16,722 nt of DNA from Candidatus Iainarchaeum sp. (GTDB taxonomy: Archaea > Iainarchaeota > Iainarchaeia > Iainarchaeales > CSSED10-239): the NCBI GenBank assembly GCA_028700905.1, contig JAQVRT010000009.1, positions 1-16,722 on the forward strand, read 5' to 3'. Below are positions 1 to 16,722 of this stretch, piece by piece (within the stretch, counting starts at the first letter, position 1; each line of letters opens with the position of its first letter). Made by a program: the position numbers and the translations under genes. The notes under the pieces are model-generated. The model was given only the letters and a program-made list of their open reading frames with translations. It was not told the origin of the DNA and ran no database searches.

Positions 1-420
1 ATCAATATATTTCCCTCTTAACAATTCTTTTCCTTCTTGGGTTAATATTTTTTCATAGTTGTCCACTTGATATCCTGTAACACTTAATTGTCTTTCTTCT
101 TTTGAAAATTTAGATATTGTTTGTGAATTTAAATATCCTGTTGCAAAATCAACTTCTCCAATTCTTTCAATTTCTTTAACATCATCTAAAGTTAATCCTT
201 TATTTGAACCTTGTCCCATCATAGAATATTTTGATGAAATTGTTATTTTTTGTGCACCAGTTTTTGAGAATTCTTCAGTTATCCCTGATTTTAAACCTTC
301 TGAAAGAGACATTAATGAAACTATTGCAATTACACCTACAATTATACCAATGATTGTTAAATAACTTCTAAGTTTTCTTCTTCTTAGGTTCATTATTACA
401 AAAGGTATTATTTTTTTCAT
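1..420 (-). CDS. ABC transporter permease, MacB/FtsX-like; N-terminal 140 codons only (gene runs off the window start)
   Basis: This gene is not in the ORF track because it is truncated by the window edge. A reverse-strand ATG at 420-418 opens a stop-free frame down to position 1. It translates as MKKIIPFVIMNLRRRKLRSYLTIIGIIVGVIAIVSLMSLSEGLKSGITEEFSKTGAQKITISSKYSMMGQGSNKGLTLDDVKEIERIGEVDFATGYLNSQ... The basic N-terminus, the LRS-x-LT-x-x-GI-x-x-GV-x-A TM1 signature and the soluble extracytoplasmic segment that follows are typical of MacB-type permeases. The start lies 21 nt downstream of the stop of the ABC ATPase gene on the same strand. Confidence 0.7.
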   Translation of the reverse strand, partial: MKKIIPFVIMNLRRRKLRSYLTIIGIIVGVIAIVSLMSLSEGLKSGITEEFSKTGAQKITISSKYSMMGQGSNKGLTLDDVKEIERIGEVDFATGYLNSQTISKFSKEERQLSVTGYQVDNYEKILTQEGKELLRGKYID

Positions 421-441
421 GTTTTATCTTTTATTTTTTTT

Positions 442-1146
442 CTATTCTGGTTTGTTTTTTTTATCTTCTATTATTTTACCATCTTTTAAAGTAATTATTC
501 TCTTTGCATTTTTTGCAACATTTAAATCATGTGTAATAATTATTATTGTTTTTCCAATATTATTTAATTTTTTAAAAAGATTAATTATTTCTTTTGAAGA
601 TTTAGAATCAAGTGCACCTGTAGGTTCATCTCCTAAAATTATTTCAGGATCATTTGCTAGAGCTCTTGCAATTGCAACTCTTTGTTGTTGACCTCCAGAA
701 AGCTCTGTTTGTTTGTGATTTATTCTATCTTGAAGTCCTACAATTTCAAGCAAATTTATACATCTTTTATTATATTCTTCTTCAGTTTCATCGTTTTCTT
801 GAAAAAGAATAGGTAATCTTACATTTTCAAAAGCAGTTAATGTTGAGATTAAATAAAAATCTTGAAAAACAAAACCAATTGTTTTTCCTCTAAGATTTGA
901 AAGTTGATTTTCTGAAAATTTATTTAATTTTTGTTTTTTAATATAAATTTCTCCTTTTGATGGAAGATCAAGAGCTCCAATTAAATGCATCATTGTTGAT
1001 TTTCCTGAACCTGACGCGCCCATAATTGCAACAAATTCTTTTGGATATATTTCTAATGAGACATCATTTACAGCTTTAACTTCAACATCTCCCATCTTGT
1101 ATATTTTAGATACATTCTTAAGTTCTACAATTGGTTTATCTTTCAT
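442..1146 (-). CDS. ABC transporter ATP-binding subunit (MacB/LolD-type)
   Basis: 234-aa ORF with Walker A GASGSGKST, Q-loop FVFQDF, ABC signature LSGGQQQRVAIARAL, Walker B IILGDEPTGALD and H-loop ITHD. It is followed on the same strand by a MacB-like permease gene. Confidence 0.93.
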   Translation of the reverse strand: MKDKPIVELKNVSKIYKMGDVEVKAVNDVSLEIYPKEFVAIMGASGSGKSTMMHLIGALDLPSKGEIYIKKQKLNKFSENQLSNLRGKTIGFVFQDFYLISTLTAFENVRLPILFQENDETEEEYNKRCINLLEIVGLQDRINHKQTELSGGQQQRVAIARALANDPEIILGDEPTGALDSKSSKEIINLFKKLNNIGKTIIIITHDLNVAKNAKRIITLKDGKIIEDKKNKPE

Positions 1147-2318: not shown

Positions 2319-2936
2319 ATGAGCTTTAAAATAGAGGTTCCTGAAAAAACTTTTCAGGACCCTAATGATTTCTATACTGAAGATGAATCAAATAGATATA
2401 ATCAAAGCAGTGGAATGAAAAAAACACAAGAAGAGTTAACTGAAATTGCACTATCTTTATCTTCTCCTTTCTCAAATAACCTCTCTTTATCTGTTTTAGA
2501 CATAGGGTGTGGAACTGGTTTTTCTTTAGAATATTTAAAAACTAAAGGTTATTTGTCTTTAAAAGGAATTGATCCTTCAAGAGAAATGATTAAAATTGCA
2601 AAATCTAAAAAATTAGATGTAAAGATTGGTGGGTTTCAAGATTTATCTAAAATTTATGAAAAATATGACTTAATTCTTTCAATTTCTGCACTTCAGTGGG
2701 TAATTTCAAATAAATCTGAAATTGAAATTAAAAATATTATTAAAAAAATTGCAAAAGATCTTAAAAAAATATTAAAAGAAGATGGAATTTCTATTTTTCA
2801 ATTTTATCCTGATTCTGAATTTGTTTTTCAGACTGTTTTTAATGCTTTTAAAAGGTTATTTATAAATACTGAGATGTTCATTTATAATTCTGATTCTTTA
2901 AAAAAAAGAAAATTTTTTCTAATTATTAAATCATAA
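2319..2936 (+). CDS. Class I SAM-dependent methyltransferase, Bud23/WBSCR22-like (candidate small-subunit rRNA methyltransferase)
   Basis: I chose the ATG at 2319 (MSFKIEVPEK...) because the track ORF start at 2256 would overlap the MscS gene by 59 nt. Motif I is VLDIGCGTGFS. The protein is collinear with yeast Bud23 as I recall it: FY-x-x-x-E-x-x-x-Y near the N-terminus, LSISALQWV versus ISISAIQWL, ISIFQFYP versus FVAQFYP, and a C-terminal KKRKFFLII versus KKNKKYYLVL. It lacks the long Lys-rich eukaryotic C-terminal tail. Confidence 0.72.
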   Translation: MSFKIEVPEKTFQDPNDFYTEDESNRYNQSSGMKKTQEELTEIALSLSSPFSNNLSLSVLDIGCGTGFSLEYLKTKGYLSLKGIDPSREMIKIAKSKKLDVKIGGFQDLSKIYEKYDLILSISALQWVISNKSEIEIKNIIKKIAKDLKKILKEDGISIFQFYPDSEFVFQTVFNAFKRLFINTEMFIYNSDSLKKRKFFLIIKS

Positions 2937-3107: not shown

Positions 3108-5684
3108 ATGACAGAAAAGAAAAAAAGAAATAGATACTTGAAACTAAGTATTTTAGGTGTTCTATTAATTGCTATTGCTTTTTTAGCAACTGCATATGTT
3201 AGTGGTAAAACTGTTGTTGAAGATGAGATTTATTTCCAATGGGTATCTCACACAGAATATTGGAGAGAAGATTATGGTTCAACTATTGTAAGATTATCAG
3301 ACTATAAAGGTAATCCTTATCCAATAGATGAATGTAGAGTAACAATTTTATACCCAGACAAATCTGTTTTTATTGATGATCAGCCAATGTATGAATCAAA
3401 TATCGCAGGTAACTGGTATAGAACAGATTATTTAGGTGGTGCTCCTTTAGGTACTTATGAACAAGAAGTAACTTGTAGAAGTGGAGCAACAATTGTTAAA
3501 AGTTCACAATCTTTCCACTTAAATCCTGCACTTGAACAAGTAAGTGTATTAACAGAAAAATCAGATAATTTAGATTTAAGACTTGCAGATGTTAATGTTT
3601 CTGTTTCTGGTCAAATTTCTGAAACTGGAGAATACATTACAACAAATTTAACAAACATGAATACTTCTTTAAATGATTTACTTGCAGATGTTAATGGAAC
3701 TCTTGCAAATCAATTACAAGAAGGAATTGTAACATTACAAACTGATCTTTCAGGTGTTGATCTTTCTTTAACAGGTACAATTTCATCAACTGGTAAAGAA
3801 ATTCAAACAAGTTTAACAAATGTTAATACAAATTTAAAAAGTCTTTTAACAAATGTTAATTCTGATATTTTAGATCAAATGGATACAAATTTTGATTCTT
3901 TAAATGCAAATTTAAATAATGTTAATTTAAATTTAACAGGTACAATTGCATCTACTGGTGAAGAAATAAATACAAATATTGATGCAACTAACACAAATTT
4001 AACTAATCTTTTAAATTCAGTTAATTCTGGTCTTTTAGATCAAATGGATTCTGATTTTAATTCATTAAATGAAAACTTAAATGATGTTAGTTTAAATTTA
4101 ACTGGAACTGTTCTTTTAACAGGAGAAGAAATTAATACAAATATTGATACTACAAACACAAATTTAACAAATCTTTTAAATTCAGTTAATTCTGGTCTTT
4201 TAGATCAAATGGAATTTGATTATAATTCTTTAACTGCAAATTTAAATGATGTTAGTTTAAATTTAACAGGTACAGTTACAGGTACAGGAGAAGAAATTAA
4301 TACAAATATTAATACTTCTACAACAAATATTTTAGATTTATTAAATGCAGTAAATAATAATTTATTAAATCAATTAGAAGAAGATTTTAATACTTCTCAA
4401 AATAATTTAGAAAATGTAAATTTAAGTTTAACTGCAAATTTAGAAGAAACTGGTGAAGAGATTAATACAAATTTAACAAATGTTTCAACTTCTTTAACTG
4501 GTCTTTTAAATACAGTTAATACAGATCTTTCAGATAAGATTGATTTAAAGTTTGCAGAATTGTCAGATCAACTTACAAATGTAAGTTTAAGTTTAAATGC
4601 AAATTTAGATGAGACTGGAGAAGAGATTAATACAAATATTTCTCTTTCAACAACTACTCTTTCAAATCTTTTAAACACAGTTAATACAGATCTTTCAGAT
4701 AAGATTGATTTAAGATTTAATCAATTGTCTGAGCAACTTACAAATGTAAGTTTAAGTTTAAATGCAAATTTAGAAGAAACTGGAGAAGAGATTAATACAA
4801 ATATTTCTCTTTCAACAACTACTCTTTCAAATCTTTTAAACACAGTTAATACAGATCTTTCAGATAAGATTGACTTAAGATTTGCAGAATTATCAAGTCA
4901 ACTTGAAAATGTTAATTTATCATTAACTGCAACTGTTACAGAAACAGGTGAAGAAATAAATACAAATTTAACAAATGTTTCAACTTCTTTAACTGATCTT
5001 TTAAATGCTGTTAATGTTAATTTATCTACTGAAATTACAGATCAATTTAATAATACAAATGCATTAATTGCACAAAAGTTTTCAGATTCAAATGATTTCC
5101 TTTCAACAAGACTTGATAATTTAGAGATTTCTGTAAATGGAACTGTTGTTTCAACAGGTCAAACTTTACAAACACAGATTACAGATGTAAATGATTCTCT
5201 TTCAAGTTTAATGACAGATTTAGTTGTAAATAATATAAATGTTCAACTAGATTTAATGCTTGAAGATTTAACAAATCAATTAACATCAATTAAACAAGAT
5301 ACTAATTGGCTTGTTTCAAATTCAATTAATCAAGAAGACATGGATGAAATTAGAAACAGATTTTCATCAGTTGATGATAATCTTGCATTAGTTGAAAATT
5401 TCTGTGGAAATCAAGATACTAACAACAGCCCATTATGTCAAGAAGTTTATAATATTAAAACAGCTGTTGAAATAATGGATCAAACACAAGCACAAAAGTT
5501 AGAAGAAATTAATCAAACTACTTTAAGTACATGGAATCTTTTAAGTGGTGAGATTAGAACAAATATTGATTCTATCTTAACTGATGTTGGTATTATTAAA
5601 GCACAAACAACTGATATCAATGCAACTGTTCATCAAATATTAGAAAATCAAGAATCAGAAATTAATATAAGAATTATTTCTTAG
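3108..5684 (+). CDS. Large N-terminally membrane-anchored repeat protein (predicted cell-surface fibrous protein); family not recognised
   Basis: I prefer the ATG at 3108 (MTEKKKRNRYLKLSILGVLLIAIAFLATAYV...), preceded by GAGGT at 3092-3096, over the track TTG start at 3084. The protein has four parts. First, a basic N-terminus and one TM helix. Second, a ~100-aa module (nt ~3234-3533) with two Cys. Third, about ten 55-aa repeats. Fourth, a ~130-aa non-repeat C-terminal region containing a C-x11-C loop (5403-5438). The repeat region is rich in Asn/Thr/Leu/Ser/Asp/Glu and carries many N-x-S/T sequons. Confidence 0.85.
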   Translation: MTEKKKRNRYLKLSILGVLLIAIAFLATAYVSGKTVVEDEIYFQWVSHTEYWREDYGSTIVRLSDYKGNPYPIDECRVTILYPDKSVFIDDQPMYESNIAGNWYRTDYLGGAPLGTYEQEVTCRSGATIVKSSQSFHLNPALEQVSVLTEKSDNLDLRLADVNVSVSGQISETGEYITTNLTNMNTSLNDLLADVNGTLANQLQEGIVTLQTDLSGVDLSLTGTISSTGKEIQTSLTNVNTNLKSLLTNVNSDILDQMDTNFDSLNANLNNVNLNLTGTIASTGEEINTNIDATNTNLTNLLNSVNSGLLDQMDSDFNSLNENLNDVSLNLTGTVLLTGEEINTNIDTTNTNLTNLLNSVNSGLLDQMEFDYNSLTANLNDVSLNLTGTVTGTGEEINTNINTSTTNILDLLNAVNNNLLNQLEEDFNTSQNNLENVNLSLTANLEETGEEINTNLTNVSTSLTGLLNTVNTDLSDKIDLKFAELSDQLTNVSLSLNANLDETGEEINTNISLSTTTLSNLLNTVNTDLSDKIDLRFNQLSEQLTNVSLSLNANLEETGEEINTNISLSTTTLSNLLNTVNTDLSDKIDLRFAELSSQLENVNLSLTATVTETGEEINTNLTNVSTSLTDLLNAVNVNLSTEITDQFNNTNALIAQKFSDSNDFLSTRLDNLEISVNGTVVSTGQTLQTQITDVNDSLSSLMTDLVVNNINVQLDLMLEDLTNQLTSIKQDTNWLVSNSINQEDMDEIRNRFSSVDDNLALVENFCGNQDTNNSPLCQEVYNIKTAVEIMDQTQAQKLEEINQTTLSTWNLLSGEIRTNIDSILTDVGIIKAQTTDINATVHQILENQESEINIRIIS
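3597..5291 (+). repeat. In-frame tandem array of ~10 units of 165 bp (55 aa); unit 9 is 210 bp
   Basis: Unit boundaries fall at 3597, 3762, 3927, 4092, 4257, 4422, 4587, 4752, 4917 and 5127. The consensus is L-S/N-L-T-G/A-T/N-x-x-x-TGEEINTN-x-x-x-x-T-x-L-x-x-LLN-x-VN-x-x-L-x-D-x-x-D-x-x-F-x-x-L-x-x-x-L-x-NV-S/N. The period is verified by ACAGATCTTT recurring at 4521, 4686 and 4851. Units 7 and 8 share a 95-nt exact match (4614-4708 versus 4779-4873). The first and last units are degenerate. Confidence 0.92.
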
Positions 5685-5771
5685 AGATTCTGTTTTCTTT
5701 TAAATAAAATTATAGGTTTTGTGAAAACAAAACTTATTTTTTTTATTTTTTTTAATAAAAACGATCATAAA

Positions 5772-6554
5772 ATGGAAAAAGGATTTAGGCATCATAATTT
5801 TAGACATTTAAATAGTTCTAATAAAAAAATTGTTTTTTATATAGTCATAGGTATTTTAGTTATTGGTTTAATTTTATTTTTAATTTTAAGTTATAGTCAA
5901 AAAAGTGCAGAACCAGGTATTAAAATGGTATCTGGAACTGAATATATTTCAGGTGAACAAGGACAAGTAATTGTTCGTCTTGAAGATACAAGAAACATAC
6001 CAATAGAAGATGCAGATTGTATTCTTTCTCTTTTATATCCAGATAAATCTTATTTTTTAATTGATGTTCCTATGCTTCCAACCTCAGTTCCAGGGAATTA
6101 TTATCATGCTTTTACAACTCCTCAAACACCTGGTATATACGAAGAACACATTAGATGTACTGTTGTAAGAAACGATACTCCAAGAACATTAAATATTTCT
6201 TATTCTTTCCACGTATCTCCTGGACTTAATTTAATTGTTGAAATGTCTCAATCTCAAAGAGAACAATATAATGATTTAGTTGCAAAAATTAATGCCTTAG
6301 ACTCAAATGTTAGAGCTCAGATTAATTCTGTAGATATGAGATTGTATGGTATGCAAGAATATATTGATAATAATGTTATGGGTGAAATTAATACTTTAAA
6401 TCAAGATGTTCAAGATATTAATATTTCTTTAAATGATTCTGTTACTGGAATTGAAGGAAGATTAAATGATACAATGCTTAATAATTTTGAAGAACTTTAC
6501 AATAAGTTTAGAGCAAGTTATGATGCTATGGCAAACATCTTTGGTGGAGAATGA
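5772..6554 (+). CDS. Short paralogue of the repeat surface protein: N-terminal membrane anchor, shared Cys-pair module and a short helical-repeat tail
   Basis: I prefer the ATG at 5772 (MEKGFRHHNFRHLNSSNKKIVFYIVIGILVIGLILFLILSY...). The track GTG start at 5721 adds only an F/K-rich low-complexity leader. The module at nt ~5919-6227 aligns with 3234-3533 of the upstream gene. Shared elements are VS-x-TEY, IVRL-x-D, a conserved Cys, LYPDKS-x-F, PM, GN-x-Y, G-x-YE-x-x-x-x-C and S-x-SFH-x-x-P-x-L. The tail, INALDSNVRAQINSVDMRLYGMQEYIDNNVMGEINTLNQDVQDINISLNDSVTGIEGRLND, resembles the repeat chemistry of the large protein. Confidence 0.8.
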   Translation: MEKGFRHHNFRHLNSSNKKIVFYIVIGILVIGLILFLILSYSQKSAEPGIKMVSGTEYISGEQGQVIVRLEDTRNIPIEDADCILSLLYPDKSYFLIDVPMLPTSVPGNYYHAFTTPQTPGIYEEHIRCTVVRNDTPRTLNISYSFHVSPGLNLIVEMSQSQREQYNDLVAKINALDSNVRAQINSVDMRLYGMQEYIDNNVMGEINTLNQDVQDINISLNDSVTGIEGRLNDTMLNNFEELYNKFRASYDAMANIFGGE

Positions 6555-10382: not shown

Positions 10383-11765
10383 ATGATTAAAAATAAATTT
10401 GTAAAAGAATATAAAGAATTAATTAAAGATTATACTTCAAATATTGAAAAATCATATGATTTAATTTTAGAAAATTATTCTAATAAATATATTTTTAAAA
10501 ATATCCCTTTAGTTGAATACTCTTTAGCTATTGCTAAAAAATTAAATGTGTATGATGAAAATATCATTATTTCTTCTGTTCTTTATAATCCTTATAAATA
10601 TAATTTAGATATTAAAAAGAAAGGTTTTCCTAAGATTATTAGAAAGATATCAAAAGATATTTATTTTATTAATTTTTATGAACTTATAAATAATTATTCT
10701 ATTTCTCCTATTAAAATAAAAAATATGATTGTTCAATCTTTTTTTAAGATTGAAGCAATAATAATCACTTTTGGTGAAGCTTTAGTTATTTTAGATTATT
10801 TTTCTGTAATTGAAGATGTTAAATTTAAAAACAGATTTTTAGAAATTATTGAAATTGCAATTTTTCCTTTAGCTTATCAGCTTGGTATGCAAAATTTTAA
10901 AGAAGAATTTTTAACTCAATTAATGAAATTAAAATATAAAGATAGTTTTAATAAAAATTATACTGAACTTAAAAAAAGATATCCTTTAGAAAAACTTAAT
11001 TCTTTAAAAGAAACTGTTATTAATCTATTAAAAAATTCAGGTCATAAGCCAATAACTTATAATTATAGATATAAAAGTCCTGGTAGTTTATTTCAGAAAA
11101 TATTTATTAGAAAAGAAAAGAAATGTATTGATGAAGTTTTAGATATTTATGCATTAAGATTAATTTATAATTCTAAGAAAGAATGTTATGCTGCTTTAAA
11201 GTTTATTAAAGATAATCTAGATGTTATTGAAAATAAAGATATAAAAGTAAGAGATTTTATTAAGCATCCTAAAGAAAATGGTTATCAATCTATTCACTTA
11301 AATATTATTTTAGATGGCTTTCCTTTAGAAATACAAATAAGAACTATAGACATGCATAACAATGCTGAGTTTGGTGTATCTGCTCATTTCCACTATAAAA
11401 ATATTGAATTTTCTGAAAAAGATAATCGTTTAATTAATATTTTAAAAGATAAAACATTAATTGAAAAACCAAAAGATATTTCATATGTTGATTACATTAG
11501 TGTATATACCCAGACAAATCAAGAGATTGTAATTCCTAAAAAATCAACTCTTCTAGATTTTGCATTTTCTCTTCATTCTGATTTTGCAAAATATTTTGAT
11601 TATGCAGAAATTAATGAAAAAATAATTAAAGATAAGTCTCATCTTCTTAAAAATGGAGATAAGATAAAGATTATTAAATCTAAGAAAGTGACTATTAAAG
11701 AAACTGACATAGATTATTTATTTAATAAAAGAAATAAAAAGAAGTTTAATCTTATTTTAAAATAA
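10383..11765 (+). CDS. RelA/SpoT homologue (RSH): degenerate HD (pseudo-hydrolase) domain, (p)ppGpp-synthetase domain and TGS domain, with no further C-terminal domains
   Basis: The synthetase motifs (nt ~11055-11402) are YRYKSPGSLFQKIFIRK, DIYALRLI, VRDFIKHPKENGYQSIHLNI and EIQIRTIDMHNNAEFGVSAHFHYK. The TGS domain (nt ~11493-11684) reads ISVYTQTNQEIVIPKKSTLLDFAFSLHSDFAKYFDYAEINEKIIKDKSHLLKNGDKIKII. The N-terminal ~200 aa keep the HD-domain scaffold: FPLAYQLGMQNFKEEF resembles APLA-x-RLG-x-x-x-K-x-ELE. The expected His reads PLVEYSLAIA, and the HD dyad reads VLYNP (Tyr-Asn codons at 10584-10589). Confidence 0.8.
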   Translation: MIKNKFVKEYKELIKDYTSNIEKSYDLILENYSNKYIFKNIPLVEYSLAIAKKLNVYDENIIISSVLYNPYKYNLDIKKKGFPKIIRKISKDIYFINFYELINNYSISPIKIKNMIVQSFFKIEAIIITFGEALVILDYFSVIEDVKFKNRFLEIIEIAIFPLAYQLGMQNFKEEFLTQLMKLKYKDSFNKNYTELKKRYPLEKLNSLKETVINLLKNSGHKPITYNYRYKSPGSLFQKIFIRKEKKCIDEVLDIYALRLIYNSKKECYAALKFIKDNLDVIENKDIKVRDFIKHPKENGYQSIHLNIILDGFPLEIQIRTIDMHNNAEFGVSAHFHYKNIEFSEKDNRLINILKDKTLIEKPKDISYVDYISVYTQTNQEIVIPKKSTLLDFAFSLHSDFAKYFDYAEINEKIIKDKSHLLKNGDKIKIIKSKKVTIKETDIDYLFNKRNKKKFNLILK

Positions 11766-13087: not shown

Positions 13088-14233
13088 TCACCTTAATCCA
13101 TATTTATAATTTTTAAATTTTTCAATTGATTTTATTTCAATTTTATTTTCTTTAATTAATTCTTTAATTAAATATCTTATTCCTTGTCTTGTTATTAAAA
13201 GTTTTTTAGATAATTCATTAATTGTTAAATTTGTTTTTAATAATTCATTTAATATAATTTTTTTATTACCTTTAACGTATCTTTTGGGTTTATTTACTCT
13301 CTTTATAAATTCTTCAATTTTATTTTGTTTATATCCTAAGTTTATTTCTGGATATTCTTTTATTAGTTTCAAGTAATCATTATAAAATTCATTTAAATTT
13401 ATTGAAAGAATATATAAACAAAACATTCCGTCTTTACCTGGTTTTATTGTTGTTTTATAATTTAATTGATTACAAATATTTTGTAAGTCTTTAATTAGAT
13501 TTTCATTTTTAAGACGTATTATAATTAAATTAGAGTCAATAGAACCTTCATCTATTATTATTCCAATTAAGAATGCTAATTTATGTTTCTTGTTTTTGTT
13601 AAAGATATCTTTAGGTATTCTTGCTATTTCTGATTTAAAACTATTTACATTTAAATTATATTGTTTAAATAATAAATTTGACACAACTACTGGGAAATAT
13701 ATTCTAGTTGTATTTTTATTATGAAAATATTTTTTTTTATATTTTAATTTTCCAAAAACCGATTCAATTTTTTTAATATATAGATTTCTATAATTTATAT
13801 TAAATTGTCTATATCCAAAATATGGTTGTCTTCCTTTTCCATTTATAACTGTTCCATCACCAATATGATGTGCAATTAACATATCAAATATAGGTGAAAT
13901 TTTAATTGGTAATTTTGGTTTTTCAATATAATTATATCCTCCTCTAATTTTATAGGCTATTATATTTTTTTGTAGTTTAAAAATAGATATTTTTAATAGT
14001 TTACATAAATTTAATAAAATTTCTAAATCAATAAAATATTTGTATCCTAATTTCATCTTAGCTTTAAATGTAGAGAAAGGAATTTTATAATTCATTATTA
14101 ATTTTTGGTGTATATTTTTTTTTGTACTATATTTTTTTTTAATTCTTTTATTTATATCATTTAAGAACAAAGTATCTACTTTAATATTTATTTTATCTCC
14201 TAATTCCCAAATATTTATTTCATTTCTATTCAT
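13088..14233 (-). CDS. Free-standing double-motif LAGLIDADG homing-endonuclease-like protein with HTH-like N- and C-terminal segments
   Basis: 381-aa ORF. Motif 1 is MLIAHHIGDG (nt 13853-13882) and motif 2 is LAFLIGIIIDEG (nt 13544-13579). The acidic residue preceding the final Gly is kept in both (D, then E). The N-terminal segment IPFSTFKAKMKLGYKYFIDLEILLNLCKLLKISIFKL looks XRE/Cro-like. The C-terminal segment LTINELSKKLLITRQGIRYLIKELIKENKIEI looks like a winged-helix/HTH. There are no intein splicing blocks, and the stop lies 4 nt before the GTPase start codon. Confidence 0.72.
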   Translation of the reverse strand: MNRNEINIWELGDKINIKVDTLFLNDINKRIKKKYSTKKNIHQKLIMNYKIPFSTFKAKMKLGYKYFIDLEILLNLCKLLKISIFKLQKNIIAYKIRGGYNYIEKPKLPIKISPIFDMLIAHHIGDGTVINGKGRQPYFGYRQFNINYRNLYIKKIESVFGKLKYKKKYFHNKNTTRIYFPVVVSNLLFKQYNLNVNSFKSEIARIPKDIFNKNKKHKLAFLIGIIIDEGSIDSNLIIIRLKNENLIKDLQNICNQLNYKTTIKPGKDGMFCLYILSINLNEFYNDYLKLIKEYPEINLGYKQNKIEEFIKRVNKPKRYVKGNKKIILNELLKTNLTINELSKKLLITRQGIRYLIKELIKENKIEIKSIEKFKNYKYGLR

Positions 14234-14319: not shown

Positions 14320-15153
14320 TTATATCTTTTTAGTTTTTTCTATATATGTTTCAACAAAAGATATACAAAATAATATTAAAGGAATCCATCCTATAAAAAC
14401 TAAAACTGGTATATTGTATAGCATATAGTGCATAAATGGAATGTTTACATACATCCATTCAAAGGAAAAAATATTTGCAACTTCATGTGTTATTACTAAA
14501 AATAAAGAACTAAGTAATAATGTGTATATTATGTGTTTTGATTTTATAAGTCTTAATAAAATAGGGGTTTTGTATTCAAGCAAAAGTGAATCTGAAAATA
14601 ACCATATTGATAAAAATGGAAAAATCATTGTGTAATTAGTACCTATTTTTCCAAATATCATATAATTGATTAAAGGTATTATTAAAAAAATAAATGCTAT
14701 TATTTGTAGTTTCTCTCTTAATTTATGATTTGGTTTATATTTATTATATTTTGTGTCATCTAAGTATTTTTCAAAGATTTTATAAGTTCCATAAACTAAA
14801 AGTATAAAACAAAAATTAATTATTGTATAAAGTACTATCCAATTAACTAAAGTATAATTATTCCATGACCAAATTTCAAATAATAAAACTCCGTAAAAAT
14901 AATCAACAACTATTGCTGAAATTAAAGAACCTATTATGAAAAAATAGGTTGCTTTTATTTTTGATTTTTTAAACAAAAGATCAATTACTGATTCTTTTCT
15001 AAGTTTGTAATTAATAAAATCAATAATGATTAAATATCCTATACAAAAGAAAACATAAAATCTAGGTATTTTTAAAACTGTTGACATGTATATGCTACCA
15101 AATAATATAATTAATCCAATTATTGCTAAAATATTGTGATTTTTCTTTTCCAT
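14320..15153 (-). CDS. Polytopic integral membrane protein (about 8 predicted TM helices), family not recognised
   Basis: I prefer the ATG at 15153 (MEKKNHNILAIIGLIILFGS...) over the track start at 15201, which adds 16 low-complexity residues. The protein has repeated hydrophobic 20-aa stretches separated by short K/Y/N-rich loops. A possible polar motif sits in a late helix (ITHEVANIFSFEWMY). Confidence 0.65.
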   Translation of the reverse strand: MEKKNHNILAIIGLIILFGSIYMSTVLKIPRFYVFFCIGYLIIIDFINYKLRKESVIDLLFKKSKIKATYFFIIGSLISAIVVDYFYGVLLFEIWSWNNYTLVNWIVLYTIINFCFILLVYGTYKIFEKYLDDTKYNKYKPNHKLREKLQIIAFIFLIIPLINYMIFGKIGTNYTMIFPFLSIWLFSDSLLLEYKTPILLRLIKSKHIIYTLLLSSLFLVITHEVANIFSFEWMYVNIPFMHYMLYNIPVLVFIGWIPLILFCISFVETYIEKTKKI

Positions 15154-15264
15154 ATTTAATATATTTTTAATTTGTTTAAGATATATATTAAATAGAAACA
15201 TTTATATTTATTTAACCTCATATATAATTGTTTAATTATTAAACCATAAGGAGAAAAGATAATT

Positions 15265-15633
15265 TTGAAAATAAACTTTCTAAAAGCAAAAATTCCATTT
15301 TCAGTGTATATTATTGTTTTTTTACTTATACTTATAGCTGGTGTTTTAAATGTTATTTTTAATAAACCTTCTTCTTTTATGGAAAACAAAGATTTAGCAA
15401 TAGATAAATGTATTCAAGAATGTCTTCATGCAAACACTAAAGGAATAATTTTAACAGAAGGACCTTGTCTTTCAGAAGAAATTGTTAAAGGTTGGGCTTG
15501 TGATGTGGTTAATCAACCAAAAATAAGTATTGTTGATAATAATCCTAAAAACCAATGTAAAAGTTATATTGAAAAAAATATCTCTCATCAAGTAGTAATT
15601 TCTACAAAATGTGAATTAGTTTCTGCAAAATAA
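15265..15633 (+). CDS. Small exported or membrane-anchored Cys-rich protein (122 aa, 6 Cys), function unknown
   Basis: A TTG start at 15265 is preceded by a strong Shine-Dalgarno AAGGAG at 15248-15253 with an 11-nt spacer. The N-terminal hydrophobic anchor is FSVYIIVFLLILIAGVLNVIF. The mature part has six Cys: DKC-IQEC, GPC, WAC, NQC and TKC. Confidence 0.55.
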   Translation: MKINFLKAKIPFSVYIIVFLLILIAGVLNVIFNKPSSFMENKDLAIDKCIQECLHANTKGIILTEGPCLSEEIVKGWACDVVNQPKISIVDNNPKNQCKSYIEKNISHQVVISTKCELVSAK

Positions 15634-16003
15634 TTTTATGTATTAATATTTTTTTAAAATCTTAATTTTTTGAAAAATTCATCTAAGTGTTTTTATAAGT
15701 TAAGTTGTATTAAAAAACCTTTTAAAACCGTTCAAACTAAAATTAAGTAATTTTAATTGTTTTTTACTCTAAATAAAGTTTAATTTAACCTTCTTTTTTT
15801 TAATTTTAAAAAATCACTTAGGAAAAAAACAATACCTTTAAAAGCTTTGCTCTTCTAAAGATTATATTACCCACTAGGAGTTTTTTCTTAGTGAGTTAGA
15901 CCGTTTAATACTTAACAAATTTTACGGAATGAAAGAAGTAGGAAATAATGCCTAATAATAACAAAAGCAAGTTTATTTGGTTAAAAAAAATGATTCTTAA
16001 ATT

Positions 16004-16722
16004 TTAGCTAAACCAATTAGTGGATAACTTGGCTTGTGTACTGATGAAGGACGTGGCAAGCTGCGATAAGCTTGGGGTAGGTGCATGCAACCTTTGATCC
16101 CAAGATTTCCGAATTATTCACTTTATGTAAATAAGGTGAAGGGGTAACCCAGGGAATTGAAGCATCTTAGTACCTGGAGGAAAAGAAAACAATAGTGATT
16201 CTGTAAATAGAGTTGATCGAAAGCAGAAGAGAACAAACCGAATCTCTTATAGTAATATAAGAGACATGTGGGGTATGGCTTGGTTACTTCTTATATATTT
16301 AAGTTGAAGCGATCTGGAAAGATCTACCATAGAGGGTGATAGTCCCGTAAGCAGAAGATATCTGAGAAGATTTCCGATGTCCTAGAGTATTGCGCGTTGG
16401 ATATCGCGTAAGAACGTAGCTGGCATTTACAGCTAATTCTAAATATAACACAAGACCGATAGTGAACGAGTACTGCGAAGGAATGTTGAAAAGATCCCTT
16501 GACGGGGAGTAAAAAGCACTTGAAACTAATTGGTGACAGCGCGGGTGTGGCTTGAAAGGAATGAGAGTAATTTATAAGTGATAAAAGGTAACTTTTAAAG
16601 CGCAAATTACTTGATCAGGGTCACACTGTCCGTCACGAAGCACGGGCGAGGGAGTTAGTTTGTGTGGCAAGACTAAGCGATTAAGTCGTTGTGTCGTAGG
16701 GAAACCGATGTGCCGCAAGATT
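16004..16722 (+). rRNA. rrl: 23S (large-subunit) rRNA, 5' ~720 nt (domain I), archaeal type; continues beyond the window end
   Basis: Conserved LSU blocks are GTGGATAACTTGGC (16020), GATGAAGGACGTGGCAAGCTGCGATAAGC (16043-16071), TTGATCCCAAGATTTCCGAAT, GGGGTAACCCAGGGAATTGAAGCATCTTAGTACCTGGAGGAAAAGAAA, GACCGATAGTGAACGAGTACTGCGAAGGAA and GGGGAGTAAAAAGCACTTGAAAC. The CAAGCTGCG form is archaeal, whereas bacteria have CTAATCTGCG. The 5' end (about 16004, give or take 15 nt) is estimated by comparison with the Haloarcula marismortui 5' end as I remember it. GC content is visibly higher than in the flanking DNA. Confidence 0.93.

What the first reader, a model, noticed from the sequence alone, without database searches (positions are those of the whole stretch)
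3108..6554. Tandem pair of paralogous N-anchored surface proteins: a shared Cys-pair module fused to helical-repeat stalks of very different length
Seen in sequence:
- Two adjacent same-strand genes each encode a basic N-terminus, a single TM helix and then a ~100-aa module that aligns between them. Shared elements are VS-x-TEY, IVRL-x-D, Cys, LYPDKS-x-F, GN-x-Y, G-x-YE-x-x-x-x-Cys and S-x-SFH-x-x-P-x-L.
- After that module both continue into Asn/Thr/Leu/Asp-rich segments whose hydrophobic residues show 3-4 spacing.
- The first gene carries about 10 units of 55 aa followed by a distinct C-terminal domain. The second carries only ~100 aa of this material.

Inference:
- The module pattern (short strands, a conserved Cys pair, G-x-Y) looks like a beta-sandwich.
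- The repeats look like coiled-coil segments interrupted by Gly/Thr-rich TG-x-EI turns. Fibrous trimeric proteins such as phage fibritin and trimeric-autotransporter stalks have that layout.
- With an N-terminal anchor, the stalk would project the C-terminal domain away from the cell.
- In a small-genome, probably episymbiotic archaeon this is a plausible host-contact or S-layer-substitute apparatus.

I do not recognise either protein as a member of a characterised family.
Basis: partly seen in the sequence, partly recalled or inferred. Interest (0 to 1): 0.72.

Follow-up and report, generated by a model that had tools for sequence, protein, structure and literature searches.

The report
Conserved DPANN surface stalk protein pair
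Two neighbouring genes of a tiny symbiotic (DPANN) archaeon encode related, uncharacterised cell-surface proteins, each an antibody-like domain followed by a long rod-like helix. The pair is conserved across several DPANN lineages, so it is a good candidate for their unknown cell-envelope or host-contact machinery.

Summary
Gene A (3108-5684, 858 aa) and gene B (5772-6554, 260 aa) share a ~110-aa module (BLASTP E=3e-21; z=29 against shuffles). A carries about ten 55-aa units and a distinct C-terminal domain; B carries ~108 aa of similar helix.

- **Structure.** AlphaFold2 (pLDDT 85.5) models B as a TM helix, a 7-strand Ig-like sandwich (filamin/macroglobulin-like) and one 108-residue helix.
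- **Periodicity.** The stalks follow an 11/3 (hendecad) pattern, not heptads. Register positions 1 and 5 are 96-100% hydrophobic over 45 hendecads.
- **No known family.** Pfam, NCBIfam, PHROGs, PADLOC and PDB give no membership. Weak hits are all to other 11-mer-periodic helices (apolipoproteins, ZorA tail).
- **Source.** The window is a contig of a Ca. Forterrea-like archaeon (Iainarchaeota).
- **Conservation.** The A-then-B arrangement recurs in about 24 of 29 distinct related loci, labelled Iainarchaeota, Woese-, Pace-, Aenigmarchaeota and Nanoarchaeia.
- **Stalk length.** It changes in steps of ~110 aa: 30, 140, 250, 370, 485, 595 residues.
- **Module spread.** The module also occurs 2-4 times in larger surface proteins (1173 representative clusters).

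B has a true signal-anchor. A has a conserved AxA-like site and may be cleaved. The most likely reading is a two-component, glycosylated envelope stalk analogous to SlaB or tetrabrachion; the function is inferred, not shown.

The parts
3108..5684 (+). Gene A (858 aa): hydrophobic N-terminus, Ig-like module, hendecad stalk, conserved C-terminal head
   Evidence: ORF list. GAGGT lies 11 nt upstream of ATG 3108. Homologues share this architecture.
3108..3194 (+). A aa 1-29: basic n-region (MTEKKKRNRYLK) and hydrophobic segment ending FLATA; candidate signal-peptidase I site A29|Y30 (either a signal peptide or a signal-anchor)
   Evidence: About 20 of 22 A-type homologues end the hydrophobic run with small-x-Ala followed by Y-x-[NSD]-G-[KQ]; B-types lack this motif. 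No SignalP-type tool was available.
3222..3551 (+). A aa 39-148: Ig-like beta-sandwich module with conserved Cys76 and Cys123
   Evidence: Aligns to the B module at E=3e-21, z=28.9. Module HMM E=4.5e-42. Fold inferred from the B model.
3552..5297 (+). A aa 149-730: helical stalk with 11/3 (hendecad) periodicity, equal to five 110-aa double units; exact 55-aa units at aa 166-660 (nt 3603-5087); DNA tandem repeat at 3767-5015
   Evidence: TRF period 165/330 nt. Spectral peak at 3.67 with power 16.3, against 0.02 at 3.5. Register occupancy 0.96, 1.00 and 0.47 at positions 1, 5 and 8. Phase is constant from aa ~141 to ~650. Length is quantised across homologues.
5298..5681 (+). A aa 731-858: conserved C-terminal head (DTxWL, RFxxxD, Cys766-x10-Cys777 loop at nt 5403-5438, TTxxTW-LLSG, sequon N838 at nt 5619-5627, C-terminal I-x-I-x-I-I-S at nt 5661-5681)
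   Evidence: Across 25 species: C-x10-C in 25/25, IN-x-T sequon in 25/25, N802 sequon in 19/25, and a C-terminal [IVM][IV]S in 21 of 25 (the other 4 end SIA, MIA, AIA or TIS). AF2 predicts all-helical but at pLDDT 49, so this is unreliable.
5772..6554 (+). Gene B (260 aa; an alternative GTG start at 5721 would give 277 aa)
   Evidence: ORF list. Its 90%-identity cluster includes NCBI MDD4049668.1, a 260-aa 'hypothetical protein' carried on a 16722-bp contig. At least 167 homologous clusters of 190-280 aa exist.
5820..5897 (+). B transmembrane signal-anchor (26-residue helix), preceded by a K/R/H-rich n-region
   Evidence: AF2 helix 18-43, pLDDT 92-94. B-type homologues have 18-23-residue hydrophobic runs without an AxA site.
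5916..6215 (+). B Ig-like beta-sandwich module (7 strands) with the conserved Cys pair
   Evidence: AF2 strands within residues 50-149, pLDDT 86-97. Foldseek matches Lin-41 filamin, C5 MG4 (TMt 0.75, rmsd 2.9), alpha2-macroglobulin and CARDB.
6219..6542 (+). B stalk: a single 108-residue helix with hendecad periodicity (one 110-aa double unit)
   Evidence: AF2 helix 151-258, pLDDT 66-96. Periodicity 3.65; register occupancy 0.9 and 1.0 at two positions.

Best explanation
A and B are paralogous, extracytoplasmic, probably N-glycosylated proteins. They form a membrane-tethered stalk system of the DPANN cell envelope.

**B, the constant base.** It has an uncleaved N-in/C-out signal-anchor and an Ig-like sandwich that starts about 6 residues after the membrane helix. 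A ~16-nm (108-residue) hendecad helix follows.

**A, the variable partner.** It has the same Ig-like module. Its hendecad helix is built from n x 110-aa double units, with n=5 here. That is ~75-88 nm if the helix is a straight rod. The helix ends in a conserved, disulfide-stapled, sequon-bearing helical head with an I-x-I-x-I-I-S C-terminus.

**Assembly and role.** The narrow a/e(/h) hydrophobic stripe implies that the helices bury it by forming parallel, slightly right-handed or straight coiled coils, as homo- or A/B hetero-oligomers. The shared modules would pack side by side at the membrane. The assembly would then act like the SlaB or tetrabrachion stalks of other archaea. It would be a pillar or fibre that holds a distal element at a set distance from the membrane. 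That element could be A's own head, an outer layer made of the multi-module relatives, or a host surface.

**Shown:** paralogy, fold of the module, helicity and 11/3 periodicity, conservation of the pair, quantised stalk length, and absence from known families.

**Inferred:** outside topology, glycosylation, oligomerisation, A-B contact and function.
For: - **Paralogy.**
- **B model.** TM helix, 7-strand sandwich, single 108-residue helix; pLDDT 85.5. Ig-like fold matches.
- **Hendecad register.** In A, B and seven homologous stalks. 11/3 = 3.67 defines hendecad, slightly right-handed coiled coils (PMC4786415).
- **Outside topology.** K/R-rich n-regions precede the hydrophobic segment in all A and B types. 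Cys pairs are conserved in the module and in the C-x10-C loop, 25/25. The IN-x-T sequon is conserved 25/25. A has 3.3 sequons per 100 aa against 0-1.5 in the neighbouring, mostly cytoplasmic, proteins. A is acidic and Lys-poor: K+R 4%, D+E 14%.
- **Core role rather than accessory.** A-then-B adjacency is found in about 24 of 29 distinct related loci, carrying five DPANN lineage labels and set among housekeeping genes. A-B is the only universally conserved neighbourhood.
- **Constant B, variable A.** B is 190-290 aa throughout, while the A stalk varies.
- **Precedent.** Ig-like domains plus coiled-coil stalks, encoded by adjacent genes, are the known archaeal envelope toolkit: slaA/slaB, and the 70-nm 11-residue-repeat stalk of tetrabrachion (PMC5744192; bioRxiv 10.64898/2026.08.21.746120).
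- **Possible outer partners.** Multi-module relatives with signal peptides and either a C-terminal TM or the same helical tail ending in xIS.
Against: - No experimental or multimer-model evidence exists for oligomerisation or for A-B contact.
- The sequon count in A is no higher than a shuffle of its N/T/S-rich composition gives (28 observed against 26 +/- 4).
- A's N-terminus may be cleaved, which would change the geometry.
- The A stalk differs from ~20 to ~90 nm between close relatives (68-84% module identity). That is odd for a lattice pillar and fits an adhesin better.
- Four loci (L028, L029, L030, L032) have B but no A within 6 kb, so A is not obligatory.
- The only A-region model is unreliable (pLDDT 49) and breaks the helices at the TG motifs.
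- The 110-aa quantisation is unexplained.
Confidence: 0.5

Rival explanations
1. Inverted geometry. A is secreted: its signal peptide is cleaved at A29|Y30. It docks through its conserved C-terminal head and terminal beta-strand-like IIS tail onto the helix or Ig module of membrane-anchored B. The Ig-like module of A would then be the distal tip. Multi-module proteins with the same tail would dock in the same way.
For: About 20 of 22 A-types carry a conserved AxA-like site followed by Y-x-[NSD]-G-[KQ]; B-types do not. Signal-peptide-bearing multi-module proteins have no TM but end in a helical tail plus AVIS, RITS or QVIS, as A does. The alternating I-x-I-x-I-I-S C-terminus is conserved. B is invariant in length.
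Against: The hydrophobic segment (17-24 residues) is long enough to be an anchor. No signal-peptide predictor or N-terminal proteomics was available. No interface model exists.
Confidence: 0.2
2. Dedicated host-adhesion fibre. A is an adhesin whose head binds the host cell, its stalk length is tuned to the host envelope, and B is only a helper. It would play no role in the cell's own envelope structure.
For: Stalk length changes rapidly among close relatives, from 140 to 595 residues, as in bacterial fibrous adhesins. The organism is a predicted symbiont (PMC5905446). DPANN host-contact components are largely unknown.
Against: The head is highly conserved across lineages whose hosts must differ (40-58% identity), whereas adhesin tips usually diversify. 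Only one pair turned up per genome scanned, in housekeeping neighbourhoods. There is no experimental link.
Confidence: 0.15
3. Apolipoprotein-like lipid binding. The 11-mer amphipathic helices lie on, or sequester, lipids or other hydrophobic cargo, for example lipids scavenged from a host. They would not form a rigid coiled coil.
For: Repeated sub-threshold similarity to apolipoprotein A-I/A-IV/E and apolipophorin III. 11/3 periodicity is also typical of lipid-surface helices. Tetrabrachion's hendecad coil has cargo-binding cavities (PMC5744192).
Against: Pfam PF01442 scores 77.1 bits, below the 90-bit cutoff. The hydrophobic stripe is narrow: 2-3 of 11 positions. K+R is only 4% and Pro 0.8%, so the helices are neither class-A amphipathic nor Pro-punctuated 22-mers.
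Confidence: 0.07
4. Reversed topology. The helices are cytoplasmic scaffold or division proteins, as with EzrA or the ZorA tail, and only the N-terminus is in the membrane.
For: Weak ZorA-tail and EzrA-like hits.
Against: The positive-inside rule places the N-terminus in the cytoplasm. Conserved Cys pairs and sequons, and the acidic Lys-poor N/T/S-rich composition, point outside. ZorA hits cover only the tail, at 41 bits against a 190-bit cutoff.
Confidence: 0.04
5. A fibre acquired from a virus or other mobile element (tail-fibre or fibritin-like).
For: Fibrous repeat architecture; generic Ig-like matches to phage proteins in BFVD.
Against: There is no significant PHROG hit outside the repeats. 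No relative was confirmed among IMG/VR viral contigs in a scan with two degenerate peptide patterns. Chromosomal synteny is stable across lineages.
Confidence: 0.02

Closest known systems
SlaB/SlaA two-component S-layer of Sulfolobales (and SlaB homologues in other archaea)
   Same: Both are encoded by adjacent, co-oriented genes for glycosylated envelope proteins. Both have a membrane-anchored subunit built from Ig-like/beta-sandwich domain(s) plus an extended coiled-coil stalk (PMC5744192).
   Different: SlaB is anchored by a C-terminal TM, with the coiled coil next to the membrane and the sandwiches distal. Here the anchor is N-terminal and the sandwich is membrane-proximal. There is no detectable sequence homology. 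The partner A is a helical paralogue of B, not an Ig-rich lattice protein. The periodicity is hendecad.
Tetrabrachion stalk of Staphylothermus marinus (right-handed coiled coil, RHCC)
   Same: An archaeal surface glycoprotein with a ~70-nm stalk built from 11-residue repeats (PMC5744192). A shows an equally long, more regular 11/3 array.
   Different: No tetrabrachion chain appears in the PDB sequence searches. Tetrabrachion is C-terminally anchored, a single polypeptide with beta-rich arms, and a proven tetramer. The oligomeric state here is unknown.
Apolipoprotein A1/A4/E domain (Pfam PF01442) and the ZorA tail (Zorya)
   Same: Long helices with 11- or 22-residue periodicity; these are the only recurrent database similarities.
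   Different: All scores are below the curated cutoffs and cover the repeat region only. There are no class-A amphipathic features and no MotA/ExbB domain.
Filamin / macroglobulin (MG) / CARDB Ig-like (E-set) domains
   Same: Seven-strand beta-sandwich of ~100 aa. Foldseek E about 1e-4; TMt 0.65-0.75.
   Different: No Pfam Ig-like family matches at sequence level. The family has its own signature: [GH]TEY, YPDK, GNYY, GxYE...C, SFHV.
Trimeric autotransporter adhesins and phage T4 fibritin
   Same: Fibrous, repeat-number-variable helical stalks that carry a terminal domain.
   Different: There is no YadA-type beta-barrel anchor and no foldon. The pattern is hendecad, not heptad or pentadecad. 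The organism is an archaeon with a single membrane. The trimeric state is untested.

Membership tests
Pfam PF01442 Apolipoprotein A1/A4/E | Whole-protein score at or above the gathering threshold (90 bits) | tested here: not met
   A scores 77.1 bits; B has no hit.
Pfam PF01442 Apolipoprotein A1/A4/E | Class-A amphipathic, often Pro-punctuated 11/22-mers with Lys/Arg at the polar/non-polar interface (from general knowledge) | tested here: not met
   11-mer periodicity is present, but K+R is 4% and Pro 0.8%, and the hydrophobic stripe covers only 2-3 of 11 positions.
Tetrabrachion / RHCC right-handed coiled coil | 11-residue (undecad/hendecad) hydrophobic periodicity | tested here: met
   Peak at 3.67; register occupancy 0.96, 1.00 and 0.47 at positions a, e and h over 45 hendecads.
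Tetrabrachion / RHCC right-handed coiled coil | Sequence homology to tetrabrachion | tested here: not met
   PDB sequence searches with A, the B profile and the A head profile return no tetrabrachion chain.
Tetrabrachion / RHCC right-handed coiled coil | Parallel tetramer with right-handed supercoil and internal cavities | not testable with these tools
SlaB-type S-layer anchor | C-terminal transmembrane helix preceded by a coiled coil, with N-terminal beta-sandwich domains | tested here: not met
   The domain order is reversed: N-terminal TM, then sandwich, then helix; there is no C-terminal TM.
SlaB-type S-layer anchor | Adjacent gene for a lattice-forming partner (SlaA) | tested here: inconclusive
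   The adjacent partner is the helical paralogue A. Ig-rich multi-module relatives exist, but their genomic linkage and lattice formation are unknown.
Trimeric autotransporter adhesin | C-terminal YadA-like beta-barrel membrane anchor | tested here: not met
   No such Pfam or NCBIfam hit. The C-terminus is a helical head ending in IIS.
Phage T4 fibritin | Heptad coiled-coil segments plus a C-terminal foldon | tested here: not met
   Heptad register occupancy is flat (0.28-0.37). There is no fibritin or foldon hit in Pfam, PHROGs or PDB.
ZorA (Zorya anti-phage system) | MotA/ExbB-type multi-pass membrane domain, and a score above the NCBIfam cutoff (190 bits) | tested here: not met
   41.4 bits; the matches cover only the profile's tail region. 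Only one TM is present.
Ig-like (E-set) beta-sandwich fold | Seven-stranded two-sheet sandwich of ~100 residues | tested here: met
   AF2 pLDDT 86-97. Foldseek matches filamin, MG and CARDB at E 1e-4 to 1e-3, with TMt up to 0.75. This is fold-level only; no sequence family is matched.

The most novel reading that the evidence does not exclude
The A/B pair is the conserved core of the DPANN host-interaction apparatus. B anchors, and the hendecad coiled coil of A, up to ~90 nm long, bridges to the host. It would work either as a tetrabrachion-like hollow rod that ferries host lipids or other hydrophobic cargo to a cell assumed, as is generally reported for DPANN, to make few or none of its own lipids. 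Or it would work as a fusion-protein-like device, using the helix, disulfide loop, helix hairpin in its head to bring the two membranes together.
Probability: 0.07. Interest if true: 0.9.

Novelty: new variant of a known kind. Interest (0 to 1): 0.58.

Why it matters
DPANN archaea are abundant, mostly uncultured and dependent on hosts. The proteins that build their envelopes and contact sites are almost entirely 'hypothetical'; published surveys note that many DPANN-specific families are membrane-bound or extracellular and have no predicted function (PMC8204110).

This work defines one such family concretely:
- a syntenic two-gene cassette present in at least five named DPANN lineages;
- a previously unmodelled Ig-like domain family (1173 representative clusters);
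- a conserved disulfide-stapled head;
- one of the most regular and longest natural hendecad arrays, whose length changes in 16-nm quanta.

The family gives cryo-ET, metaproteomics and structural groups a specific, testable candidate for DPANN pillars or filaments. It also gives coiled-coil researchers a natural model for 11/3 fibres of tunable length.

Tried and rejected
- **Family libraries.** Pfam, NCBIfam, PHROGs and PADLOC scans of A, B, their parts and ten homologues gave only sub-threshold hits driven by helical repeats: Apolipoprotein, Baculo_PEP_C, ZorA tail, IcmG/DotF.
- **PDB sequence searches.** Module profile, head profile, full A and the B profile gave nothing for the module or head, and only apolipoprotein-type tails otherwise.
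- **AF2 model of the last 305 aa of A.** With a 9-sequence alignment it reached pLDDT 48.8. I judged it unreliable and did not use it for fold search or geometry.
- **Foldseek against BFVD.** Only generic Ig-like phage proteins.
- **IMG/VR scan.** No relative.
- **Exact look-ups.** The window's LeuRS and P0005 were not on record.
- **Sequon enrichment.** As stand-alone evidence for glycosylation it failed the shuffle control for A. I kept only the positionally conserved sequons.
- **Constant hendecad phase.** I first read it as proof of an unbroken rod. It is partly a trivial consequence of exact 55-aa repeats, so it is not decisive.
- **Link to T2SSE ATPases.** They lie next to B in only a few loci, mostly close relatives, so I did not adopt a functional link.
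- **Literature.** Six of ten searches found no description of this family.

Full report
**1. What the window is.** The 16,722-bp window has about 24% GC and ends in the 5' part of an archaeal 23S rRNA. The 90%-identity cluster of gene B's product includes NCBI MDD4049668.1, a 'hypothetical protein' of a MAG labelled Candidatus ainarchaeum sp., carried on a contig of exactly 16,722 bp. The closest complete genome is Ca. Forterrea multitransposorum CP045477. It is 95% identical over the A-type module, and 96% and 91% identical over the full A and B proteins. This is a DPANN archaeon of the Iainarchaeota, described as a predicted symbiont with minimal metabolism (PMC5905446). The neighbouring genes are housekeeping: an ABC ATPase, MscS, two SAM-methyltransferase-like genes, LeuRS, a RelA/SpoT-TGS protein and a YchF-like GTPase.

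**2.
- Gene A is 3108-5684 (858 aa; a GAGGT motif lies 11 nt upstream of the ATG). Gene B is 5772-6554 (260 aa).
- Both start with a K/R-rich stretch and one hydrophobic segment, followed by a ~110-aa module. The modules align at E=3e-21. The Smith-Waterman score is 166 against 26.6 +/- 4.8 for shuffles, z=28.9.
- A continues with 55-aa tandem units. TRF reports a 165-nt period over 3767-5015. Nine units sit in exact register at aa 166-660, and there are ten TG-motif units in all. A distinct C-terminal region follows.
- B continues with ~108 residues of similar material.
- The repeat array is not an assembly artefact, because the curated Forterrea genome has the same ORF with no gaps.

**3. 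Anatomy.**
- *B model.* AlphaFold2 with a 117-sequence alignment gives pLDDT 85.5. It shows a TM helix (18-43), a seven-strand beta-sandwich (50-149, pLDDT 86-97) and one uninterrupted helix (151-258).
- *Fold of the module.* Foldseek against the PDB matches the sandwich to filamin, complement C5 and alpha2-macroglobulin MG, and CARDB domains. E is about 1e-4 and TMt reaches 0.75. This is a generic Ig-like fold with no functional implication.
- *Periodicity of the stalks.* It is 11/3, not 7/2. In A aa 166-660, hydrophobic occupancy of the eleven register positions is 0.96, 0.11, 0.00, 0.22, 1.00, 0.02, 0.16, 0.47, 0.22, 0.22, 0.02. The heptad register is flat at 0.28-0.37. The spectral peak is at 3.67 with power 16.3, against 0.02 at 3.5.
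- *Generality.* Seven homologous stalks that lack near-identical repeats peak at 3.66-3.70, and the B tail peaks at 3.65. Hendecads (11/3 = 3.67) give slightly right-handed coiled coils (PMC4786415).
- *The TG-x-E motif.* It does not interrupt the register. In the confident B model the homologous SVTGIEG is helical. Only the unreliable A model (pLDDT 48.8) breaks helices there.
- *The C-terminal head of A (aa ~731-858).* It is conserved in 25 species. C-x10-C is invariant and the IN-x-T sequon is invariant. A second sequon is present in 19/25. The C-terminus is I-x-I-x-[IV]-I-S in nearly all.

**4. Topology.**
- The basic residues precede the hydrophobic segment in every A and B homologue, so the positive-inside rule predicts N-in/C-out.
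- Conserved Cys pairs, conserved sequons and an acidic, Lys-poor, N/T/S-rich composition fit an exposed archaeal glycoprotein. K+R is 4% in a 24%-GC genome.
- The raw sequon count of A equals the shuffle expectation, so only the positionally conserved sequons count as evidence.
- B-types have 18-23-residue hydrophobic runs with no cleavage motif, which makes them signal-anchors.
- A-types end the run with small-x-Ala followed by a conserved Y-x-[NSD]-G-[KQ] in about 20 of 22 cases. This looks like a signal-peptidase I site. Whether A stays N-anchored is therefore open.

**5. Distribution.**
- The word-indexed search found at least 167 B-type clusters, all 190-280 aa, all unnamed or 'hypothetical'. 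Their labels are Aenigmarchaeota, Nanoarchaeia, Woesearchaeota and ainarchaeum.
- An exhaustive HMM search of 1.84 billion representatives with the module profile found 1173 proteins at E<=1e-3 and 505 at E<=1e-10.
- Among the proteins retrieved, there were 138 of B-type architecture and 44 of A-type. About 60 carry 2-4 modules, are 250-2200 aa long, and have no Pfam domain. Many of these have a C-terminal TM, or a helical tail ending AVIS, RITS or QVIS.
- In GTDB species representatives, 26 loci were found, most of them carrying DPANN labels. The rest were labelled only 'archaeon', 'uncultured archaeon' or 'uncultured Methanosarcinales' in third-party assemblies.
- Among the 29 distinct related loci (26 from GTDB genomes plus the metagenomic contigs, duplicates removed), about 24 have an A-type gene immediately followed by a B-type gene. 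The exceptions are B-A order (L019), B alone (L028, L029, L030, L032) and a divergent multi-paralogue contig (L025, L031). One of the A-then-B loci, L018, carries a second A after B.
- Clustering of all neighbouring ORFs shows that A-B is the only universally conserved unit.
- No relative was confirmed among IMG/VR viral contigs.

**6. Quantised stalk.** I measured the distance from the end of the module to the head motif DTxW[LI].

| Residues | Where |
|---|---|
| 30-40 | P0127, P0128 |
| 139-140 | L002, L009 |
| 249-251 | L005, L006, L016, L020 |
| 362-375 | L004, L010, L011, L013, L026 |
| 485 | L008 |
| 595 | window, Forterrea |

The steps are about 110 aa, which is two 55-aa units, ten hendecads, or ~16 nm of straight helix. 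B's tail equals one such double unit. In several lineages the two halves of the 110-aa unit differ, so in-register unequal crossing-over may explain the quantum. A structural constraint is the alternative. This is unresolved (note).

**7. Comparison with what is known.**
- No curated family accepts either protein. Apolipoprotein PF01442 scores 77.1 bits against a 90-bit cutoff. ZorA scores 41 against 190 and matches the tail only. Nothing matches the module or the head.
- The nearest functional analogues are archaeal envelope stalks. SlaB has Ig-like domains, a coiled coil and a C-terminal TM, and is encoded next to slaA. Tetrabrachion has a 70-nm stalk with 11-residue repeats (PMC5744192).
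- The present family uses the same toolkit with reversed topology, a paralogous partner and its own Ig-like sequence family. I therefore class it as a new variant of a known kind.
- Published surveys mention many DPANN-specific membrane or extracellular families without function (PMC8204110). I found no paper describing this one.

**8. Mechanism and confidence.**
- *Best-supported reading (0.5).* A two-component, glycosylated, membrane-tethered hendecad coiled-coil stalk system. B is the constant ~16-nm base. A is a variable-length rod with a conserved head, and the shared Ig-like modules sit at the membrane.
- *Rivals.* A is secreted and docks on B by its head (0.2). A is a dedicated host adhesin (0.15). 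The helices bind lipid as apolipoproteins do (0.07). The helices are a cytoplasmic scaffold (0.04). The fibre is of viral origin (0.02).
- *Status of the evidence.* Paralogy, fold, periodicity, conservation and quantisation are shown. Localisation, oligomerisation, A-B contact and function are inferred.

Noticed in passing
A-type homologues in L002, L004-L011, L013, L016, L020, L026 and window 3552-5297: Stalk length is quantised in ~110-aa (10-hendecad) steps: 30-40, 140, 250, 362-375, 485 and 595 residues. An odd number of 55-aa units never occurs, even though the window's best DNA repeat period is a single unit (165 nt).
   Followed up: partly
P0143, P0145, P0149 and about 60 other proteins: The same Ig-like module occurs 2-4 times in proteins of 250-2200 aa that have no Pfam domain. 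Some have a C-terminal TM. Others have a signal peptide plus a short helical tail ending AVIS, RITS or QVIS, like the A head. These are possible outer-layer partners.
   Followed up: partly
L004 6860-8704, L013 5437-7308, L014 8810-10687 (also nearby in L009, L028): A ~620-aa T2SSE (type II/IV secretion/pilus) ATPase lies directly downstream of B in several relatives. In the one copy scanned here (L014) it has an N-terminal 4Fe-4S ferredoxin-like domain. Two unannotated ~225-250-aa ORFs follow it in L004 and L014 (one in L013, where the contig ends). It is absent from this position in the window.
   Followed up: partly
L005 5656-5925: In the Aenigmarchaeota locus, an 89-aa ORF with an N-terminal hydrophobic segment sits between A and B. 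It also ends in ...TIIS, the same C-terminal tripeptide as the A-type head.
   Followed up: no
L018, L019, L030, L028/L029/L032: The cassette has variants: A-B-A (L018), B-then-A order (L019), and B without A. L030 keeps the window's ABC-MscS-MTase-[B]-LeuRS synteny but lacks A.
   Followed up: partly
window 10383-11765 (+): A RelA/SpoT-domain plus TGS protein (460 aa) in a DPANN archaeon, conserved next to LeuRS in close relatives. Alarmone-synthetase-like genes are, to my knowledge, unusual in archaea.
   Followed up: no
window 13088-14233 (-) and 15996-16722 (+): A free-standing ORF with weak, sub-threshold LAGLIDADG-like and HTH matches lies ~1.7 kb upstream of a 23S rRNA gene cut by the contig end. 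No 16S gene or tRNA lies upstream within the window, which suggests an unlinked rRNA gene.
   Followed up: no
window 15265-15633 (+) and 14320-15201 (-): A small 122-aa protein with an N-terminal hydrophobic segment and 6 Cys, and a 293-aa multi-pass membrane protein. Neither has any Pfam match.
   Followed up: no
window 2319-2936 (+), 442-1146 (-): A SAM-methyltransferase directly upstream of A, and a divergent MacB-type ABC ATPase (with an FtsX/MacB permease in L004), are conserved next to the pair in 8-9 loci, most of them close relatives, but not in most distant lineages.
   Followed up: partly
L001 1127-2681, L012 265-2172, L014 5863-7800; P0004: A-type genes are often split into two ORFs in MAG contigs, by a frameshift or assembly error just after the module. 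P0004 is a chimera of an A-type N-terminus and a protein matching Pfam PF16906. Public gene calls for this family are unreliable.
   Followed up: partly
window 419-691 (+): This 90-aa ORF is antisense to the ABC ATPase gene and is almost certainly spurious.
   Followed up: no
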